Assembly: GCA_016187415.1 (NCBI GenBank)
Contig: JACPJT010000007.1
Span: 1,289 to 65,288, forward strand
Length of the DNA stretch: 64,000 nt
From: Candidatus Aenigmatarchaeota archaeon
GTDB lineage: Archaea; Aenigmatarchaeota; Aenigmatarchaeia; CG10238-14; SCSR01
Reading direction: 5' to 3'
Shown here in pieces: positions 1,743-50,550 of this stretch (position 1 is its first letter; every line of letters begins with the position of its first letter). The notes under the pieces are model-generated. The model saw nothing but the letters and a program-made list of their open reading frames with translations. It made no database searches and was not told where the DNA came from. The translations under genes and the position numbers were made by a program.

Positions 1743-1831
1743 GGGCTGGTAGGTCAGTCCGGTAGACCGCGAGCATGGCATAGATACATCACCGAAGCTT
1801 GAAGCCGAGGGTTCAAATCCCTCCCAGTCCA
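1743..1831 (+). tRNA. tRNA-Ala (anticodon GGC) with ~15-nt intron at canonical 37/38 position
   Basis: Acceptor GGGCTGG/CCAGTCC with G3:U70 Ala identity pair. D-arm GGTC..GACC, anticodon stem CGAGC/GCTTG, T-arm GAGGG-TTCAAAT-CCCTC, discriminator A. The 22-nt region between anticodon stem halves implies an intron. Confidence 0.7.
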
Positions 1832-8417: not shown

Positions 8418-8515
8418 AATTAATTAGTAAATAGTAAAGGATTTAAGTTTTGATGACTTTGCAAAGTTCATCCAATACTTGCAGATAAAAGTTATTTTAG
8501 GTGCAAGGCTCTGTT

Positions 8516-8725
8516 TTACTTGAGCAACCTGAGGAAACCGACCACATCTTTCGTTTTACCTATGTTTTTAATTTGGATGAGATAGGATGAAAGGATTATC
8601 AAAGATAATAGTGCCGTAGCCAACGAAAACGCTCTGATCGAGCTGTTTCCGGTAAGTTCGTATGCTACCGCTGAAACGAAACTTATCAATAACCCCATCT
8701 TACCAATATTCTTGTACATTTTCAC
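8516..8725 (-). CDS. hypothetical small membrane protein (69 aa, 2 TM)
   Basis: Two hydrophobic helices. Confidence 0.35.
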   Translation of the reverse strand: MKMYKNIGKMGLLISFVSAVAYELTGNSSIRAFSLATALLSLIILSSYLIQIKNIGKTKDVVGFLRLLK

Positions 8726-26110: not shown

Positions 26111-26112
26111 CT

Positions 26113-26185
26113 GGGGTCGTCGGCTAGCTTGGTAGGCTTCGAGCTTCGGGTGCTTGAGACCTGGGTTCAAATCCCAGCGACCCCA
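26113..26185 (+). tRNA. tRNA-Pro (anticodon CGG), intron-less
   Basis: Acceptor GGGGTCG/CGACCCC, anticodon stem CGAGC/GCTTG with loop TTCGGGT, T-arm CTGGG-TTCAAAT-CCCAG, discriminator A. Confidence 0.75.
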
Positions 26186-26208
26186 TTGACGAAATGTTTA
26201 AATAGTTT

Positions 26209-27496: not shown

Positions 27497-29713
27497 TTAA
27501 TGCTTAATAGTTTTCAACGTAGATTGTGACTCGCTTGCATTTTTAACGTCTTCACCCAGCTGTTTTTTAATTTCATACGCTGCTTTAATTCCAATAATCC
27601 CTATTAGCATTTCAGTCGGTGTGCTTCTTAATTTATCGAGTGTATCAAACCCAGCATTAAATAACCTTCGTGACCTTACTCTGCCTATCCCCTTCAACTT
27701 TACTAGCGGTACTAATTCCTCTTTGATGCCGTACTTCAATCTTATACGCAACTTTTTTAGAGGATTCAACAGTCCCTTTTCTCCGTTTAAAACCGCCAAT
27801 TCGTATAAGCCATATACTAGCCAATCGAGTATCCTAAGTTTACTATATAATTCACCAGGCGCGATTTTGAATTTTGTTAGCAGTTGGTCTTCTGAAGACT
27901 CGCTTATCCACCCATCGAACATCAGTGCTGTTTTGACTGATTTAAGAAATTCGTCATATTCGAGATCATACTCTTCTGGTATTTCTGCCAATAGTTGGTT
28001 ACCATGTCTTATAATTAGTTCTTCCGTATCGGAAATCTCATCTGACCTTACTGATACAAGCGGTCTTATTTCTAGTGAGTTTGAAGCAAGTTGCAGAAAA
28101 CTGAACTCTGTCAAATGTCTTTCTTTACATAATTTCAATCCTTCGAGAAAATAATGCGCAGTTAGTGGGTCGATATACAAATCTGAGATTCTTTTTCCGA
28201 TGGGTGTGGTTGTTATAACATTTTTTTGAATTCTAATCATAGACCATTCTTCAAGCTGCTTCAATATGTCATATAATTTTTCTTTTAGGATATCTATGTC
28301 ATTGTAATGAAACGCGTAAAATGTTCTGTTGAAAAACCCGATAATCGATTCCCTAGAATTACAGAACCCGCTCGAAATCAAAGCTAGTATATGCGCCCTA
28401 AGAATCGGCTCTAGCGCGAGTTTGGATGTTATATCCTCTGGCTGACCAAGAATAAAATGTTGTATCATAGACCTGGCGTCGCCTTCTGATTTTGCCAATA
28501 ATATCGATTCACCGAAAGTATCGTAAGTTGGTCTTCCAGCTCTGCCAACAAACTGCTTGTAATCCATTACAGGTATGTAAGTTGAACCGATTCCATCGTA
28601 ATATCGTTTCGCATCCCGTATAATAACTCTGAACGCTGGCAGATTAACTCCCATTGCCAATGTTGGCGTGGCGACAATTGCTTTTATCAAGCCATTTCTG
28701 AAATTGCTTTCAATCAGTCTTTTTTGTTCGCCTAATAAACCGGCGTGATGAAAGGCTGTGCCGAACTTTACACATTGTGCTAGTTTTCTGCACTGTTGTG
28801 TGGGTATTTCAATAACGCTCTCGATATCTTTGCTCAATTTGGTTAATTTCAACCGCGTATCACTATCCAATTTCTGGCTGGTTGTTTTACATAATTTTTC
28901 CGCAAGACTTTCAGCATTTCTCCTGGTGGAAGTGAAAACTAGCGCTTGTTTTTTTAGGTTCAACGTATTGTCGATGATTGAATTTTCTATTTCTAAAGTG
29001 TCGTTCAGTTCGTATCCTTCTCTGTCTTCAAAGTGTATTTTAGAATCGAATGCCACACCTTCATACAATTTTACAGGCCTGAAGTCGCTCGTGATTGGTG
29101 TTGCATTTAACCATTTTGATAATTCCTCGGCGTTGTTGATGGTGGCCGACAGCCCTAGAATCTGGGCGCTTGGAATAATAGACATCAACTTCGTTAACAT
29201 GATTTCCAATGTTGGACCACGCGAAGAATCGTTCATTGTGTGAATTTCATCAACTATTATAAGATCTACGTTTTGCACCCATCCAACATTATGCCTTAAC
29301 AGACTATCGAATTTTTCTGTAGTTAAACATACAACATCGTAATCCGCTAGCCACGAATCAGCAGAATCGAAATCACCGACACTTATTGCAACTTTAAAAT
29401 CACCGTCGAGAAATTTCTTGAAGTACTCATATTTTTCATTCGCCAGTGCTACCAACGGCGCAATATACACTACCTTAACACCCCTCTTATCTAAGAGTTT
29501 ATGCAGCATGCAAATTGCCGCGATTAATGTTTTCCCACTGGCTGTTGGCAAGGTCCCACTGGCTGTTGGCAAGGACAACACAAGATTCCTTTTGAATAGC
29601 CCTTCCTTAATCACATCTGCCTGAGGTTTGTATAACTCTTTTATGTTATCCTTTTCCAGCCTTTGGACGTATTTCTCAGGTATTCCATAACCGACTAACT
29701 CTCCGACTTTCAT
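27497..29713 (-). CDS. hel308: Hel308/Hjm (Ski2-like) DNA helicase with an in-frame 7-aa tandem duplication at the Walker A motif
   Basis: 738 aa. Walker A LPTASGKT duplicated as LPTASGTLPTASGKT, DEIH box (IIVDEIHTM), SAT motif (LSATI), motif VI (QFVGRAGR), winged-helix, ratchet and C-terminal HhH domain (LKGIGRVRSRRL). Confidence 0.9.
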   Translation of the reverse strand: MKVGELVGYGIPEKYVQRLEKDNIKELYKPQADVIKEGLFKRNLVLSLPTASGTLPTASGKTLIAAICMLHKLLDKRGVKVVYIAPLVALANEKYEYFKKFLDGDFKVAISVGDFDSADSWLADYDVVCLTTEKFDSLLRHNVGWVQNVDLIIVDEIHTMNDSSRGPTLEIMLTKLMSIIPSAQILGLSATINNAEELSKWLNATPITSDFRPVKLYEGVAFDSKIHFEDREGYELNDTLEIENSIIDNTLNLKKQALVFTSTRRNAESLAEKLCKTTSQKLDSDTRLKLTKLSKDIESVIEIPTQQCRKLAQCVKFGTAFHHAGLLGEQKRLIESNFRNGLIKAIVATPTLAMGVNLPAFRVIIRDAKRYYDGIGSTYIPVMDYKQFVGRAGRPTYDTFGESILLAKSEGDARSMIQHFILGQPEDITSKLALEPILRAHILALISSGFCNSRESIIGFFNRTFYAFHYNDIDILKEKLYDILKQLEEWSMIRIQKNVITTTPIGKRISDLYIDPLTAHYFLEGLKLCKERHLTEFSFLQLASNSLEIRPLVSVRSDEISDTEELIIRHGNQLLAEIPEEYDLEYDEFLKSVKTALMFDGWISESSEDQLLTKFKIAPGELYSKLRILDWLVYGLYELAVLNGEKGLLNPLKKLRIRLKYGIKEELVPLVKLKGIGRVRSRRLFNAGFDTLDKLRSTPTEMLIGIIGIKAAYEIKKQLGEDVKNASESQSTLKTIKH

Positions 29714-29761: not shown

Positions 29762-30745
29762 ATGATAGTTTTAGGTATAGAATCGACCGCACATACATTC
29801 GGAGTTGGTATAATAAATGGAAAGGGCGATGTGCTATCTTCGAATAGAGACATGTACAAACCTAAATTGGGCGAAGGTTTCACACCATTTGATCTCGCTG
29901 AACACCATTATAATGGTTGCCTTAAGACACTAAAATCTGCTCTAAGCGGTTCGGAATTAAAGTTGCGTGATATTGATGTGATAGCCTTTTCGCAGGGTAT
30001 GGGCATCCCAAACTCATTGAAGGTTGGCGCTGTACTGGCACGATACCTAGCATTAAAATTCAATAAGCCACTTGTCGGCGTTAATCATGGGATAGCACAT
30101 ATAGAAATTGGGAAGTTTAAAACATGCGCTAAGGATCCTGTTATCGTATATCTTTCTGGCGGAAACTCGCAAATATTGGCATATATCGATAGTAGATACA
30201 GAATTTTTGGGGAAACTTTGGATATACCGATAGGTAATGCGTTTGATGTATTGGCTAGAGAAATGGATTTGCAAATGCCTGGCGGACCAGAGATAGAGAA
30301 ATCTGCAAATGGGGGGAAGTTTGTCGAATTGCCGTATGTTGTAAAAGGCATGGATATGTCGTTTACAGGTATAATGACTGCTGCCATGGAGAAATTTAGA
30401 GACGGGGTTGATAAAAAAACCGTATCTTACTCTATGCAAGAGACTTGTTTTTCGATGTTAGTTGAAGTCACAGAACGTGCACTGGCGCACACAAACAAAA
30501 AGGAGGTTTTGCTTGTTGGTGGTGTGGCGGCCAATAAAAGGTTGCAAGAAATGATGAGCATAATGTGTAGAGATAGAAAAGCCGAATTCTATGTGGTTCC
30601 TATGGAATTTTCTGGTGATAATCCTGTAATGATAGCATATACCGGATTTCTGGCATTTACCAGTGGTCAAAAACTGAAAATTTCTGATAGCTCTGTTAGA
30701 CAGAATTGGCGTACAGACGAGGTCGAAATAAGCTGGATTATATAA
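29762..30745 (+). CDS. kae1: tRNA N6-adenosine threonylcarbamoyltransferase Kae1 (stand-alone, not Bud32-fused)
   Basis: 327 aa, Kae1/TsaD N-terminus MIVLGIESTAHTFGVGII and ASKHA fold motifs. Confidence 0.9.
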   Translation: MIVLGIESTAHTFGVGIINGKGDVLSSNRDMYKPKLGEGFTPFDLAEHHYNGCLKTLKSALSGSELKLRDIDVIAFSQGMGIPNSLKVGAVLARYLALKFNKPLVGVNHGIAHIEIGKFKTCAKDPVIVYLSGGNSQILAYIDSRYRIFGETLDIPIGNAFDVLAREMDLQMPGGPEIEKSANGGKFVELPYVVKGMDMSFTGIMTAAMEKFRDGVDKKTVSYSMQETCFSMLVEVTERALAHTNKKEVLLVGGVAANKRLQEMMSIMCRDRKAEFYVVPMEFSGDNPVMIAYTGFLAFTSGQKLKISDSSVRQNWRTDEVEISWII

Positions 30746-36132: not shown

Positions 36133-38853
36133 ATGGAACTAGATTTTCAGCTTCTCGACTGCGATTATATAAACTTAGGTAATAAGCCAGTTGTGAGGCT
36201 CTTCGGAAAAACTAAAGATGGTAAATCAGTATGCGTATTTTTCAGGAATTACAGCCCATATTTTTATGTGTTACCAAAAAACAACTTTGAAAAAATAGAA
36301 GAGATGATAACAAAAAAATTCACTGGTCTCGTGACAAAAATAGAGAATGTTCAAAAGTTCCTCCCTAAAGGGTATCAAGTACAGAAGCAATCTATTTTGA
36401 AAATAACATTGAACGACCCATCAAGAGTACCGGAAGTACGGGATTCACTGCAGTCAGAAAAACTAGTGGAAGGCGTTTACGAGGCCGACATACTCTTCAA
36501 ATATAGGTTTATGGCAGATTTTAACATATCTGGCTTCAACTGGATAAGAGCTACAGGTATACAAACACGGACATCCACAGTGAAAGTTGATATTGTTGTA
36601 GAGGCGACAGAACTTAAAGAAATCGACAATTTCAGAAATGTTGACTTGAAATACATGTCTTTTGATATAGAAACAATTTCAGAGGAGGGTGCACCGGATC
36701 CCAGAAAAGATATAATCGGAATGATTAGCATATCGTTTTCACCACATTACAATTCACAAACATCTCTTGTTATAGTATCGAAAATCTCCCCTAAACTAAA
36801 CAAAAACATTAAAGTTTTTCAAAACGAAAAGGAAATGTTACAAGAGTTCCTACAAATTTTGGAAAATTATGACCCAGATGTATTGGTCGGTTATAACATA
36901 AACAATTTCGACTTACCATACATACTTTCTAGACTAAAGGAAAATAATTTACATCAGATGCTCGGCAGATGCAAGCAAAAACCTATGATATCCCGAAAGA
37001 TTGGTGTGCAATACAGAAATGTTGCAGTCGGCAGAATAATCGTGGATGCATACGAATTGATCAAGGAATCTATCAGGAAAGGAAATCTCAGACTTAAAAG
37101 GCTTGGCTTGGGTGATGTATCAAAAGAATTGTTAAACGACACAAAAATGGATATTTCACACAGCGAAATATTCGGCCATTGGCATGGAGAGAGTGAGCAA
37201 GTAGCAAAACTTATCGAGTATGCACGAAAAGACTCAGATCTCGCGCTAAGGTTAGTCCTAGAGAAAGGATTTCTTGACAAGTTTTTCGAACTAGGAAAGG
37301 TTTCAGGGCTTGTTTTACAAGATTGTTTGGATGGTGGCGAGGCACAGAGAGTTGAAAACATCTTGTTGAAAGAATTTGACAAAAATGAGTATGTTCTACC
37401 ATGTAAACCGCGCGAAGAGATGCTGGAAACAGAGGAAATGCAAGAACTTAAGGGTGCACTTGTCTTAGAACCGAAGATCGGTTTGCATACAGATCCGATT
37501 GTATATCTTGACTTCAAGTCAATGTACCCGTCAATTTTTATTGCATACAACATTTGTCCGACAACTCTAATGACGAACGAGAATATGAATGTGGAATCAA
37601 TAACAACGCCTTACGGTACAAAATTTGTTTCCAAATCTGTGAAAACAGGAATCATGCCAACAATACTCAAAAAATTAATCGACGAAAGGGATAAAGTACG
37701 TGCAGAAGAGAAAAAAAGTACTGAAAAAGAAGTCAAACGCCTGCTTGAGGCAAAACAGATAGCGCTAAAAATAATGACCAATGCATTTTACGGATATACG
37801 GGTTATTTGCGTGCTAGGTTATACATTCCAGCTATAGCCAACACAATAACAGGTTGTGGTAGATTTCTAATAAACAAAACAAAACACATCATTGAAGAGA
37901 AGACAGGTTATGAAGTTGTTTATGGCGACACCGATTCTATAATGGTAAAGATTAAAACCGATGCAATAGAAACAGCGTTCGATATAGGTAAAAATTTGGA
38001 GTCCCTGGTAAATACGGAATTGACAGGAATAATACAAATGAAGATTGAAAAAATATTCAAATCACTCCTGATTCTTTCAAAAAAACGTTATACCGGGTTA
38101 GCTTACGAAAAATCAAACGGCGAATGGAAAGAAGATTTGGTAATGAAAGGTATTGAAACTGTTAGAAGAGATTGGTGCAACGCGGCTACAAAAACACTTT
38201 TTGAAGTTTTGAATATTTTATTGCGTGAACAAAACCCCAAAAAAGCATTCATATACATCAAAGACTATGTATCAAAACTTGAAAGAAATGAAATACCAAT
38301 AGACGATCTAATCATAACAAAAAGTATTTCCAAATCACTTTCGGCATACAAGGGTATGCAGCCTCATGTAGAGCTTGTTAAAAAAATGAAAAAGAGGAAT
38401 GGCACGGCTCCAGGTGTAGGTGATAGAGTGGGTTTTGTTATTGTGAAAGGAATGCAACTATTATCACAACGATCGGAAGATCCAGAGTTCGTAACTGCTA
38501 ACAAAATACCACTAGATTCAAAATATTATCTCGAAAGCCAAATATTACCACCCTTGGAAAGGGTGTTTGAAGTTATAGGAATTAGCAAATCTGAACTGAT
38601 GGGCATCGGGAGGCAAACTTTGTTGAAAGAACTTTTTGGAAATAATCATCGTGTTAACGGCACAACAAATGATGTTAAGGAATCCATAGACAGTTTCGAC
38701 GGGTTCGTCTGCAGTAAATGTAATAAATTCTATCGTAGGATACCACTTATAGGAAAGTGTCTTGAATGTCAAGGTGAGATTTTATTTTCTTCGCCCCAGG
38801 GCAAATCACGGAATCTAATGGCCTATACATATGGTAACAATTTAAAGGTTTAA
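36133..38853 (+). CDS. polB: family B DNA polymerase with intact exo and pol motifs and a C-terminal CxxC-x12-CxxC zinc finger
   Basis: 906 aa. Exo I FDIET, Exo II YNINNFDLPY, Exo III YARKDSD. Pol motif A DFKSMYPSI, motif B KIMTNAFYGYTGY, motif C VYGDTDS. C-terminal CSKCNKFYRRIPLIGKCLEC. Confidence 0.95.
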   Translation: MELDFQLLDCDYINLGNKPVVRLFGKTKDGKSVCVFFRNYSPYFYVLPKNNFEKIEEMITKKFTGLVTKIENVQKFLPKGYQVQKQSILKITLNDPSRVPEVRDSLQSEKLVEGVYEADILFKYRFMADFNISGFNWIRATGIQTRTSTVKVDIVVEATELKEIDNFRNVDLKYMSFDIETISEEGAPDPRKDIIGMISISFSPHYNSQTSLVIVSKISPKLNKNIKVFQNEKEMLQEFLQILENYDPDVLVGYNINNFDLPYILSRLKENNLHQMLGRCKQKPMISRKIGVQYRNVAVGRIIVDAYELIKESIRKGNLRLKRLGLGDVSKELLNDTKMDISHSEIFGHWHGESEQVAKLIEYARKDSDLALRLVLEKGFLDKFFELGKVSGLVLQDCLDGGEAQRVENILLKEFDKNEYVLPCKPREEMLETEEMQELKGALVLEPKIGLHTDPIVYLDFKSMYPSIFIAYNICPTTLMTNENMNVESITTPYGTKFVSKSVKTGIMPTILKKLIDERDKVRAEEKKSTEKEVKRLLEAKQIALKIMTNAFYGYTGYLRARLYIPAIANTITGCGRFLINKTKHIIEEKTGYEVVYGDTDSIMVKIKTDAIETAFDIGKNLESLVNTELTGIIQMKIEKIFKSLLILSKKRYTGLAYEKSNGEWKEDLVMKGIETVRRDWCNAATKTLFEVLNILLREQNPKKAFIYIKDYVSKLERNEIPIDDLIITKSISKSLSAYKGMQPHVELVKKMKKRNGTAPGVGDRVGFVIVKGMQLLSQRSEDPEFVTANKIPLDSKYYLESQILPPLERVFEVIGISKSELMGIGRQTLLKELFGNNHRVNGTTNDVKESIDSFDGFVCSKCNKFYRRIPLIGKCLECQGEILFSSPQGKSRNLMAYTYGNNLKV

Positions 38854-48463: not shown

Positions 48464-49441
48464 AGTGTTTTCGATTATTTCTTTCCAAGTTTTTTCAAAT
48501 CGTTTGATTGTAAACCTTTTTGCATATTTATATCCTGTAGAAGACATTTTTTTGCTTTTTTCAAGCGCCTTATCGACAAGTTTATTCAAGTCCTTGAAAT
48601 CGTTGCAAATTATCTGCCCGCCTCCCGACAATAACTCTGGCAAAGCTCCCATATTAGAACCTATAACCGGTCTTTTCAGTAGCATAGCTTCGTGTAAGGT
48701 GATGCTCCACCCCGTATTAAATTTATCCATACCTATCACTATGTCAGCAGACTTCAACAACTTAAGGTAATCTCTGTACGATAATTCAAAATTTCTGGCA
48801 GGTAAATTCACCTTTCGTTTCCCACTTGTTACCAAAGTGAAGTCTCGGTTTTTGAGCTGGTTATAGATTTCTACAACACCCTTATTTTTTTGGCAGTTTC
48901 CCATGTAAATTATTGGTTTGTCGCCTAGACCATTTTCTTCTTTAAACTCTTCAACTTCACCGTCGGAAATATCATAGTTCTTCAAATCAAACCCACAATA
49001 TGCTATGTCAATATTTTTAAATCCAAGTTTATTGAAATGTCCTTTCCAATATTTCGAAATAACGACGATTTCATCAAGCAGTCTAAGGTTTCTGTAGAAA
49101 AACTTGTTAAGTATATTATTGAACATCGGTGATCTAGTTGCGGATGGATCCAAATGGTAAAATAATAATAGATTTTTACCTTCTGTTCTATCTATATCGA
49201 GAGTAATTGTCGAATAAATACCCCTAATAAATAAATCTTTTTTTGAAGAAATTCGTGCAAGCTTGTAAAGTTGTGAAATTCTGTTTAAAACTATATTATT
49301 TGGTAATTTTTTCGGGAATATATCTTCTACATTATAATACTTTTCCAAGAAAGCTATGAGTTGTGCATCATACCGACTACCACCAAACAATGAATTTTTT
49401 TCAACGAAAGCTTTTAGCCAGCCAATGTCAACAGATTTCAT
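48452..49441 (-). CDS. glycosyltransferase, GT-B (GT4-like)
   Basis: 329 aa, C-terminal GT4 nucleotide-sugar binding pattern (GWSITLHEAMLLKRPVIGSNMGALPE). Confidence 0.7.
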   Translation of the reverse strand: MKSVDIGWLKAFVEKNSLFGGSRYDAQLIAFLEKYYNVEDIFPKKLPNNIVLNRISQLYKLARISSKKDLFIRGIYSTITLDIDRTEGKNLLLFYHLDPSATRSPMFNNILNKFFYRNLRLLDEIVVISKYWKGHFNKLGFKNIDIAYCGFDLKNYDISDGEVEEFKEENGLGDKPIIYMGNCQKNKGVVEIYNQLKNRDFTLVTSGKRKVNLPARNFELSYRDYLKLLKSADIVIGMDKFNTGWSITLHEAMLLKRPVIGSNMGALPELLSGGGQIICNDFKDLNKLVDKALEKSKKMSSTGYKYAKRFTIKRFEKTWKEIIENTLGK

Positions 49442-50550
49442 ACATTATCACACGCCATCGAATAAATTTCCTTCAGTTTTTTATTTCGCTCTTTTATCGA
49501 GAACTTACCACACTCTATAACTTTATAGCAATTCCTTCTTATTCTGTTTTGAATTTTCTTATTTGTTATCAAATTTTCAACACTTTCGGCAAACTCTTCA
49601 ACGAACTCAGGGAAGTGTGTCTTTTTAAGAATTTCATTAAAATCATTAAAAGTCTTCCATTTGCTGATGAAACCTTCACCATAAAGCGATATGGGAGAAT
49701 GTACATTCAAACCAGTTTTATTATCCTCTATTATTTCCGGTATATCAAAAACGTCTGTAGTTACAACTGGAACTTGATATGCCAGAGCTTCCAAATATAC
49801 ACCAAAGCTCGCCTGAAATAACGGAAATATGAATGCATCAGACGTTCTGTACAATGTCTCAAGTTCATCCCAAGGAATATCATGTAAAAAGTGAATGTTT
49901 TGATAGGAAGAATATTTTTGTATATATTCTGGTGGCGTTTCGGATACAAAGAATAGTTCCACATCATATTTTTTATTTAGTTTTTCGAAAACTTCTAGCG
50001 CTTCTTTACCACCTTTCGCATGGAATTTAGTACCCACAAAGAGTAATTTAATTTTTTCCTTGTTTACAATCCTGATTTTCCCTACACTATGATGGGCTGG
50101 ATAAACTACTTCTAATTTATTTTCAAGTTCCTTGTCATGGAAGTATTTCTGAAATTCTTTTTTGGCCGATTCTGTGAACGGCAGAATAAATTTACATTTT
50201 TCTTTCTTCAGTTGCATTGTTATAAAATTTCTAACACCAGAATTTACAAGAAATCTATAATCACGTTGATTGGGGGTAAGAATTATCGGGTGTTCCAGAT
50301 CAACGACGTAGTTTACATTGTTTAAAACTATCCTTCCTACACTATGCACCAAATCGGCTCTTTTAAATATATGACATACACGACCTTTATTTTTATAAAA
50401 TGAAACATTAATGGACTTGTTAACTACCCTGAATATCGGATTGTTATAAGAAAAATCCGTAACGTATTTCACAGGCGGGTATTTGTATAATTCCTGATAT
50501 ATTTTGTGAGAGTCTTTCTTAACATCTAATAATATTTTCATTTGCTTCAC
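49438..50550 (-). CDS. glycosyltransferase family 4 (GT-B)
   Basis: 370 aa, FIFPLFQASFGVYLEALAYQVPVVTTDVFDIPEII motif. Confidence 0.8.
   Translation of the reverse strand: MKQMKILLDVKKDSHKIYQELYKYPPVKYVTDFSYNNPIFRVVNKSINVSFYKNKGRVCHIFKRADLVHSVGRIVLNNVNYVVDLEHPIILTPNQRDYRFLVNSGVRNFITMQLKKEKCKFILPFTESAKKEFQKYFHDKELENKLEVVYPAHHSVGKIRIVNKEKIKLLFVGTKFHAKGGKEALEVFEKLNKKYDVELFFVSETPPEYIQKYSSYQNIHFLHDIPWDELETLYRTSDAFIFPLFQASFGVYLEALAYQVPVVTTDVFDIPEIIEDNKTGLNVHSPISLYGEGFISKWKTFNDFNEILKKTHFPEFVEEFAESVENLITNKKIQNRIRRNCYKVIECGKFSIKERNKKLKEIYSMACDNV

What the first reader, a model, noticed from the sequence alone, without database searches (positions are those of the whole stretch)
29534..29575. Perfect 21-bp tandem duplication inside the Walker A (P-loop) of the Hel308 helicase
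cccactggctgttggcaaggt / cccactggctgttggcaagga are adjacent direct repeats. On the coding strand they give LPTASG-TLPTASG-KT, inserting seven extra residues immediately N-terminal to an intact PTASGKT P-loop. This could be a replication-slippage polymorphism that tunes or impairs ATP binding, or an assembly artefact.
Basis: seen in the sequence. Interest (0 to 1): 0.5.

Follow-up and report, generated by a model that had tools for sequence, protein, structure and literature searches.

The report
Seven-residue duplication allele in Hel308 helicase
A perfect 21-base tandem duplication really sits next to the ATP-binding loop of an archaeal Hel308 repair helicase, but other assemblies of the same clonal population carry one copy, so it is a strain-level variant, probably damaging and less likely an assembly error, not a designed feature.

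Summary
It lies inside a 738-aa minus-strand Hel308/Hjm helicase gene (27497-29713) and gives LVLS-LPTASGT-LPTASGKT. The intact Walker A is the second copy.

The duplication is not conserved: 0 of 116 homologues and no solved Hel308 structure has residues there.

The window protein is NCBI MBI2547491.1, from an Aenigmarchaeota MAG. Thirteen independent Logan contigs of the same population, from five sequencing runs, match the window with 0 mismatches over 65,392 aligned bases. The only difference is this 21-nt indel:
- Three runs carry one copy.
- One contig (SRR12113422) starts exactly at 29554, the break a k=31 graph makes only when both alleles are in the reads.
- One run (SRR12113424) has an unexplained gap over the site.

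AlphaFold confidence at the loop falls from about 91 for the one-copy protein to about 37 for the two-copy protein.

Best reading (confidence 0.7): a recent in-frame duplication allele segregating in the population, probably weakening or abolishing ATPase activity. Main rival (about 0.18): an assembly or scaffolding artefact, since 21 is a common assembler k. Nothing supports adaptive tuning. This is ordinary, and interest is low.

The parts
29533..29553 (.). Tandem repeat unit 1 (TCCCACTGGCTGTTGGCAAGG). On the coding strand it is the promoter-distal unit, which together with the following AA ACA encodes the intact Walker A.
29554..29574 (.). Tandem repeat unit 2, identical to unit 1. On the coding strand it is the promoter-proximal unit, encoding (S)LPTASG and the first base of the junction codon ACC. 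This is the 21 nt absent from the single-copy allele; the gap can be placed equally on either unit.
27497..29713 (-). hel308/hjm gene, 738 aa (731 aa in the single-copy allele). Pfam domains DEAD, Helicase_C, Helicase_dom4_arc and HHH_5. Identical to NCBI MBI2547491.1.
29528..29548 (-). Intact Walker A / motif I, P56-T-A-S-G-K61-T62. P, T, A, G, K and T are invariant in 117/117 aligned sequences.
   Evidence: the Hjm Walker A (Thr48-Thr53, Lys52) wraps the triphosphate (PMC2636818)
29552..29569 (-). Degenerate extra copy P49-T-A-S-G-T54, with Thr in place of the Walker lysine. With L55 it forms the 7-residue insert. AlphaFold pLDDT is below 50 for residues 50-59.
29573..29584 (-). Strand beta-1 of RecA domain 1 (L44-V-L-S47). 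It normally runs straight into the P-loop and is here separated from it by the insert.
   Evidence: DSSP on both AlphaFold models, E44-47
29762..30745 (+). Divergently transcribed kae1/tsaD gene (context only). It was used as the exact-protein handle to recover independent contigs of the same population.

Best explanation
The duplication is a recent in-frame 21-bp tandem-duplication allele of the hel308 gene. It segregates in an otherwise clonal Aenigmarchaeota population whose ancestral and more commonly assembled allele has a single copy. The allele puts seven extra residues (LPTASGT) between strand beta-1 of RecA domain 1 and the Walker A loop. Only the second copy keeps the GKT that binds the ATP phosphates. 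Beta-1 normally leads directly into the P-loop and no relative tolerates an insertion there, so the two-copy protein is most likely a weakened or dead ATPase: a mildly to strongly deleterious, evolutionarily transient variant, not a regulatory device. Shown here: the repeat exists, the single-copy allele exists in the same population, the insertion has no counterpart in homologues, and model confidence is lost at the loop. Inferred: that reads contain the two-copy junction, that the duplication arose by replication slippage or unequal sister-strand exchange, and that function is lost.
For: (1) P0001 (731 aa, Logan assembly of SRR12113383) is identical to the window protein apart from the 7 residues. 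Its 4.8-kb contig matches the window with 0 mismatches and one 21-nt gap. (2) Contigs from SRR12113385 and SRR12113384 also span the site with one copy and 0 mismatches. (3) Thirteen Logan contigs from five runs give 65,392 aligned nt covering 30,332 window bases, with 0 mismatches; the only gaps are at this site. The two alleles therefore sit on the same clonal background and the change is very recent. (4) Contig L021 (SRR12113422) begins exactly at 29554, the first base of the second unit. A k=31 de Bruijn simulation shows that one-copy-only or two-copy-only input is linear through the site, whereas a mixture breaks the flanks at 29553/29554. By chance, an end at that exact base is expected roughly once per contig length, about 1 in 3,000. 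(5) 0 of 116 homologues (54-70% identical) have any residue in the 7 insert columns, and Walker A is invariant. HMMER places a 7-residue gap there against Hjm 2zj2 and Hel308 2p6r. (6) AlphaFold2 with the same alignment depth gives mean pLDDT 92 and 91 for residues 41-50 and 51-60 of the one-copy protein, against 79 and 37 for the two-copy protein; the rest of the fold is unchanged. (7) If the MAG comes from the MEGAHIT-based pipeline (unverified), every junction k-mer of a de Bruijn contig must occur in reads (inference; methods in PMC7906910).
Against: No reads could be examined, so the two-copy junction has been seen directly only in the one NCBI MAG (1 contig). No Logan contig carries the two-copy allele across the site. 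The unit length equals 21, the default smallest k of MEGAHIT and metaSPAdes, and there is no microhomology at the junction; both facts fit a k-mer-overlap artefact at least as well as slippage. The gap in SRR12113424 (contig ends at 29514 and 29584) is not what the simple two-allele model predicts. AlphaFold confidence is not a measure of activity.
Confidence: 0.7

Rival explanations
1. Assembly or scaffolding artefact. Two contigs that shared a 21-nt end (a k=21 graph overlap, or the flanks of an unresolved bubble) were joined without trimming the overlap. This created a duplication that no DNA molecule carries, or that only a negligible minority carries.
For: The unit is exactly 21 nt with exactly 2.0 copies and no microhomology. 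Every independent assembly that spans the site has one copy. The two-copy form is on record in only one contig. It is the sole difference from 65 kb of independent contigs. The pipeline of the study that probably produced the MAG adds an IDBA-UD scaffolding step after MEGAHIT (PMC7906910; the link to this MAG is unverified).
Against: One-copy reads alone give a linear graph with no reason to break at this site. Yet an independent k=31 assembly of SRR12113422 breaks exactly at the unit boundary 29554, and SRR12113424, which has the longest contigs for this population, also fails to cross the site. Both point to real heterogeneity in reads. The window has no Ns and no other duplication of k-mer length.
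Confidence: 0.18
2. Functional or adaptive insertion. The two-copy protein is active with altered ATP binding ('tuning'), or the unstable duplication acts as a reversible on/off switch of Hel308 in the population.
For: The duplication is in frame and leaves one complete Walker A and the whole downstream protein intact. Both alleles appear to coexist. Tandem duplications can revert by the reverse event (general knowledge).
Against: No homologue among 116 and no solved Hel308 has an insertion there. There are only two copies, with no sign of a longer or variable array. No special DNA structure is present at the site: fold z-scores are +0.5 to +1.6, worse than shuffles. The model loses confidence at the P-loop. 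In-frame length is uninformative because 21 is a multiple of 3 in any case.
Confidence: 0.05
3. Footprint of a mobile element or homing endonuclease. Inteins occur in Hel308 of related Aenigmarchaeota, and imprecise repair of an endonuclease cut could leave a short duplication.
For: Four homologues (P0019, P0065, P0067, P0091) carry intein and LAGLIDADG domains.
Against: Their inteins sit near residue 346 (motif V) or around residues 382-400 (motif VI), about 300 residues from the P-loop. No mobile-element sequence adjoins the repeat.
Confidence: 0.02

Closest known systems
Archaeal Hel308/Hjm (Ski2-like SF2 DNA helicase; PDB 2zj2, 2p6r, 2va8)
   Same: Full-length match to P. furiosus Hjm (E 2.5e-152, residues 11-729) and A. 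fulgidus Hel308 (E 1e-137). It has the same five-domain layout: two RecA domains, a winged helix, the ratchet 'Helicase_dom4_arc' domain and a C-terminal HhH domain. Walker A PTASGKT, DEIH and SAT motifs are all present.
   Different: Seven extra residues lie between beta-1 and Walker A. They are absent from every solved structure and every homologue examined.
Short in-frame tandem duplications (microindels) arising by replication slippage or unequal exchange in prokaryotic populations
   Same: Perfect head-to-tail copy, length a multiple of three, on an otherwise identical clonal background, with the unduplicated allele coexisting.
   Different: No flanking microhomology, which slippage usually uses. 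The location is one of the least tolerant sites of the protein.
k-mer-overlap duplications in de Bruijn-graph assemblies, such as untrimmed k-length overlaps at contig joins
   Same: Exact length of 21 (a common k), exactly two copies, and absence from other assemblies.
   Different: The repeat is internal to a 212-kb contig with no Ns. An independent assembler breaks at the unit boundary, as expected if the junction is in reads.
Contingency loci / phase-variable simple-sequence repeats
   Same: A repeat whose copy number changes the protein product.
   Different: Only two copies of a long, complex 21-nt unit; changes are in frame; there is no array and no conservation in relatives. This does not meet the definition.

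Membership tests
Hel308/Hjm (archaeal Ski2-like SF2 helicase) | Two RecA-like helicase domains with SF2 motifs (Q, I/Walker A, II DEIH, III SAT, VI) | tested here: met
   Pfam DEAD 7.6e-31 and Helicase_C 1.7e-11. Q31, PTAxGKT, D155-E156-x-H158, S189-A190 and the motif VI residues Q387, G390-R391, G393-R394 are invariant in the 117-sequence alignment.
Hel308/Hjm (archaeal Ski2-like SF2 helicase) | Winged-helix, ratchet (domain 4) and C-terminal helix-hairpin-helix domains | tested here: met
   PF21280 Helicase_dom4_arc 1.9e-26 (residues 538-662) and HHH_5 7.6e-05, which is below Pfam's own cut-off. Alignment to 2zj2 runs to residue 729. The AlphaFold model has pTM 0.87-0.88.
Hel308/Hjm (archaeal Ski2-like SF2 helicase) | Canonical beta-1 to P-loop to alpha-1 geometry of the nucleotide site | tested here: inconclusive
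   The one-copy allele is modelled confidently (pLDDT about 91). The two-copy allele has pLDDT below 50 for residues 50-59. No experimental structure or activity data exist.
Hel308/Hjm (archaeal Ski2-like SF2 helicase) | ssDNA-dependent ATPase and 3'-5' translocase activity | not testable with these tools
   Needs biochemistry; the activities of the family are described in PMC13623763.
Real population polymorphism (as opposed to artefact) | Alternative allele present on the same genetic background in independent data | tested here: met
   The one-copy allele occurs in three Logan assemblies with 0 mismatches elsewhere.
Real population polymorphism (as opposed to artefact) | Reads that span the unit-unit junction | tested here: inconclusive
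   Indirect evidence only: the contig break at 29554 in SRR12113422 matches the two-allele simulation.
Phase-variable / contingency repeat locus | Multi-copy array with variable copy number, recurring in relatives | tested here: not met
   Exactly 2.0 copies. 0 of 116 homologues have any extra copy.

The most novel reading that the evidence does not exclude
The 7-residue Walker-A-adjacent duplication is a genuine, recurrently gained and lost allele that switches Hel308 ATPase activity off and on within a clonal DPANN population. For example, it might relax the restraint Hel308 places on recombination. Alternatively, the duplicated-loop enzyme is active with altered nucleotide handling, which would show that the beta-1/P-loop junction of an SF2 helicase tolerates a 7-residue insertion.
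Probability: 0.04. Interest if true: 0.5.

Novelty: new member of a known kind. Interest (0 to 1): 0.12.

Why it matters
It matters mainly as a caution. The deposited protein MBI2547491.1 carries a 7-residue insertion at its ATP-binding loop that is not representative of the population, so it should not be used as the reference Hel308 for this lineage or in motif alignments. If reads confirm the allele, it is a small natural example of a probably disabling in-frame duplication segregating in a DNA-repair helicase of a reduced-genome archaeon. That is of modest interest for population genetics of DPANN archaea, but not a new mechanism.

Tried and rejected
- **Exact-protein look-up of the 738-aa product in the assembly index:** nothing found. 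It is nevertheless in the protein collection as NCBI MBI2547491.1.
- **Look-up of the 684-aa partial product** expected for a contig ending at 29553: none found. The control look-up of the 671-aa partial product did recover L024, so the negative result is meaningful.
- **JGI metagenome scan** with a pattern accepting either allele: 0 hits.
- **GTDB genome scan with the protein:** the source genome is not there. Only relatives with at most 59% identity were found, Aenigmatarchaeota plus some Omnitrophota-labelled MAGs.
- **Literature and supplement searches** for the SRR run numbers and the protein accession: no hits. The attribution of the MAG to PRJNA640378 (He et al. 2021) therefore stays unverified. 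An attempt to confirm it through ribosomal-protein peptides failed because the window lacks that operon.
- **Hairpin or secondary-structure origin:** rejected, because the region folds worse than shuffled sequence.
- **Intein or homing-endonuclease footprint:** rejected, because the inteins in homologues sit in motifs V and VI.
- **Three-copy allele, simple deletion allele, or flanking SNPs** as the cause of the SRR12113424 gap: none reproduces the ends at 29514 and 29584 (and base-by-base reasoning). This is left unexplained.

Full report
**Observation**

The window contains TCCCACTGGCTGTTGGCAAGG twice in direct succession at 29533-29553 and 29554-29574.
- Tandem Repeats Finder scores it 84 (period 21, 2.0 copies, 100% identity), the best tandem repeat in the 64-kb window.
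- None of 100 shuffles produced the 21-mer even with three mismatches.
- A scan for all perfect tandem duplications with units of 8-199 nt found only this one and a 9-bp repeat at 49634.
- There is no partial third copy and no microhomology between the unit ends and the flanks.

**The gene**

The repeat lies in a 738-codon minus-strand ORF, 27497-29713.
- Pfam finds DEAD, Helicase_C, the archaeal helicase domain 4 and an HhH domain.
- The protein aligns end to end with P. furiosus Hjm (2zj2, E 2.5e-152) and A. fulgidus Hel308 (2p6r, E 1e-137).
- It is therefore a Hel308/Hjm-type Ski2-like DNA helicase, and the best homologues are named Aenigmarchaeota/Aenigmatarchaeota.
- The coding strand reads ...RNLVLS-LPTASGT-LPTASGKT-LIAA. 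The junction creates a new Thr54, the first copy lacks the Walker lysine, and the second copy (P56-T62) is the intact Walker A.
- In Hjm the equivalent Thr48-Thr53 loop wraps the triphosphate, with Lys52 invariant (PMC2636818).

**Conservation**

In an alignment of the window protein with 116 homologues (54-70% identical, plus one that is identical apart from the insert), the seven insert columns are empty in all 116. P, T, A, G, K and T of Walker A are invariant. HMMER opens a 7-residue gap at the same place against both solved structures.

**Independent assemblies of the same population**

The best homologue, P0001 (731 aa), comes from a Logan assembly of run SRR12113383. It is identical to the window protein except that it lacks the seven residues. 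Its 4,842-bp contig matches window 31022-26164 with 0 mismatches and a single 21-nt gap.

The exact 738-aa sequence is NCBI MBI2547491.1, 'MAG: DEAD/DEAH box helicase [Candidatus Aenigmarchaeota archaeon]', on one 212,430-bp contig.

Exact-protein look-ups of neighbouring genes gave more contigs from runs SRR12113384, -85, -422 and -424. Thirteen contigs in all give 65,392 aligned bases covering 30,332 window positions, with no mismatch. The only gaps are the 21 nt at this site, seen in three runs. The population is effectively clonal, and the duplication is the only difference between the deposited MAG and these assemblies.

**Is the two-copy form real?**

| Run | Contig(s) | Result at the repeat |
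|---|---|---|
| SRR12113383 | L001 | spans the site, one copy |
| SRR12113385 | L022 | spans the site, one copy |
| SRR12113384 | L023 | spans the site, one copy |
| SRR12113422 | L021 | starts exactly at 29554, the first base of the second unit |
| SRR12113424 | L024, L020 | does not cross: ends at 29514, restarts at 29584 |

- I simulated the k=31 de Bruijn graph that the Logan pipeline uses (the k value is my own knowledge of that pipeline). One-copy-only or two-copy-only input is linear through the region. A mixture of the two breaks the flanking unitigs at 29553 and 29554, with allele-specific arms spanning 29524-29583.
- The start of L021 is exactly the predicted base, which chance would give roughly once per contig length. 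This is indirect evidence that reads of SRR12113422 contain both junctions.
- The ends in SRR12113424 are 39 and 30 nt short of the prediction, and I could not explain them.
- A look-up for the partial gene product expected from a left-hand contig ending at 29553 found nothing. The equivalent control look-up worked.
- I could not reach reads, so the junction itself is documented only in the one MAG.

**The artefact rival**

Twenty-one is the default smallest k of MEGAHIT and metaSPAdes (my own knowledge), and the repeat is exactly 2.0 copies without microhomology. That pattern is what an untrimmed k-mer overlap would give.

The MAG plausibly belongs to the groundwater study PRJNA640378, which used MEGAHIT with default parameters followed by the IDBA-UD scaffolder (PMC7906910). 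One MAG in that study has a matching GC content (Aenigmarchaeota_37_102). I could not verify the link.

Against the artefact: one-copy reads alone give no graph break at this site, and an independent assembler breaks at the unit boundary. I put the artefact at about 0.18.

**Effect on the protein**

AlphaFold2 was run with equivalent alignments for both alleles.

| Model | Overall pLDDT | pTM | Residues 41-50 | Residues 51-60 |
|---|---|---|---|---|
| One copy (731 aa) | 91.4 | 0.88 | 92 | 91 |
| Two copies (738 aa) | 89.4 | 0.87 | 79 | 37 |

- The one-copy model has beta-1 at 44-47 and alpha-1 starting at K54.
- The two-copy model keeps beta-1 at 44-47 and the same global fold, but residues 50-59 fall below pLDDT 50.
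- The insert sits where beta-1 normally runs directly into the phosphate-binding loop. Together with the complete lack of insertions there in relatives, I infer a hypomorphic or null ATPase. This is inference, not measurement.

**Other ideas tested**

- The region has no unusual DNA secondary structure; fold z-scores are +0.5 to +1.6.
- Inteins exist in four related Hel308 proteins, but they are inserted in motifs V and VI, not at the P-loop. An endonuclease footprint is therefore unlikely.
- Nothing suggests a contingency-type array.

**Verdict**

The duplication is a strain-level allele of an otherwise ordinary Hel308: most likely a recent, probably deleterious in-frame duplication that coexists with the wild-type allele (0.7), less likely an assembly artefact (0.18). 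It is not a conserved or evidently functional feature. Interest is low. The practical message is that the deposited protein should not be taken as the representative sequence.

Noticed in passing
window 1743-1831, 8426-8521, 26112-26186: The two tRNA finders disagree. ARAGORN calls a 96-nt tRNA-Cys at 8426-8521 and a tRNA-Pro at 26112-26186. Rfam calls an 89-nt tRNA at 1743-1831, which ARAGORN misses, and the tRNA-Pro, but nothing at 8426. The long lengths suggest intron-containing archaeal tRNAs.
   Followed up: no
window 29514-29584 (Logan contigs L024 and L020, run SRR12113424): The run with the longest contigs for this population has no contig across the repeat. Its contig ends at 29514 and 29584 do not match the simple one-copy plus two-copy graph model (predicted 29553/29554). 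A third allele, a shared conserved stretch with another genome, or pipeline trimming are all possible.
   Followed up: partly
window 10572-44066 (13 Logan contigs, L001 and L020-L031): Contigs from five sequencing runs (SRR12113383/84/85/422/424) are 100% identical to the window over 30,332 covered bases. The population is remarkably clonal across samples.
   Followed up: yes
window 26156-26164: Logan contigs from three runs all end inside the tRNA-Pro gene. The likely cause is k-mers shared with other genomes at a conserved tRNA.
   Followed up: no
homologues P0019, P0065, P0067, P0091 (not in the window): Four Aenigmarchaeota-like Hel308 proteins of 1118-1251 aa carry inteins with LAGLIDADG or Hom_end domains. 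The inteins are inserted near residue 346 (motif V, TPTLA) or around residues 382-400 (motif VI).
   Followed up: partly
loci L007-L010 (genome contigs): Hel308-type genes 39-45% identical to this archaeal protein occur on contigs labelled Candidatus Omnitrophota/Omnitrophica (bacteria). This could be horizontal transfer or mis-binned contigs.
   Followed up: no
window about 32.9-33.3 kb and 36133-38853: A replication and repair neighbourhood lies downstream of hel308: a weak Hjc (Holliday junction resolvase) Pfam hit and a 906-aa family-B DNA polymerase (gene list of L026, whose base 1 aligns to window 32617).
   Followed up: no
window 49536-49578 and 49634-49651: An imperfect 20-bp tandem repeat (2.2 copies, 83% identity) and a perfect 9-bp tandem repeat lie within the span of the ORF at 49438-50550.
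   Followed up: no
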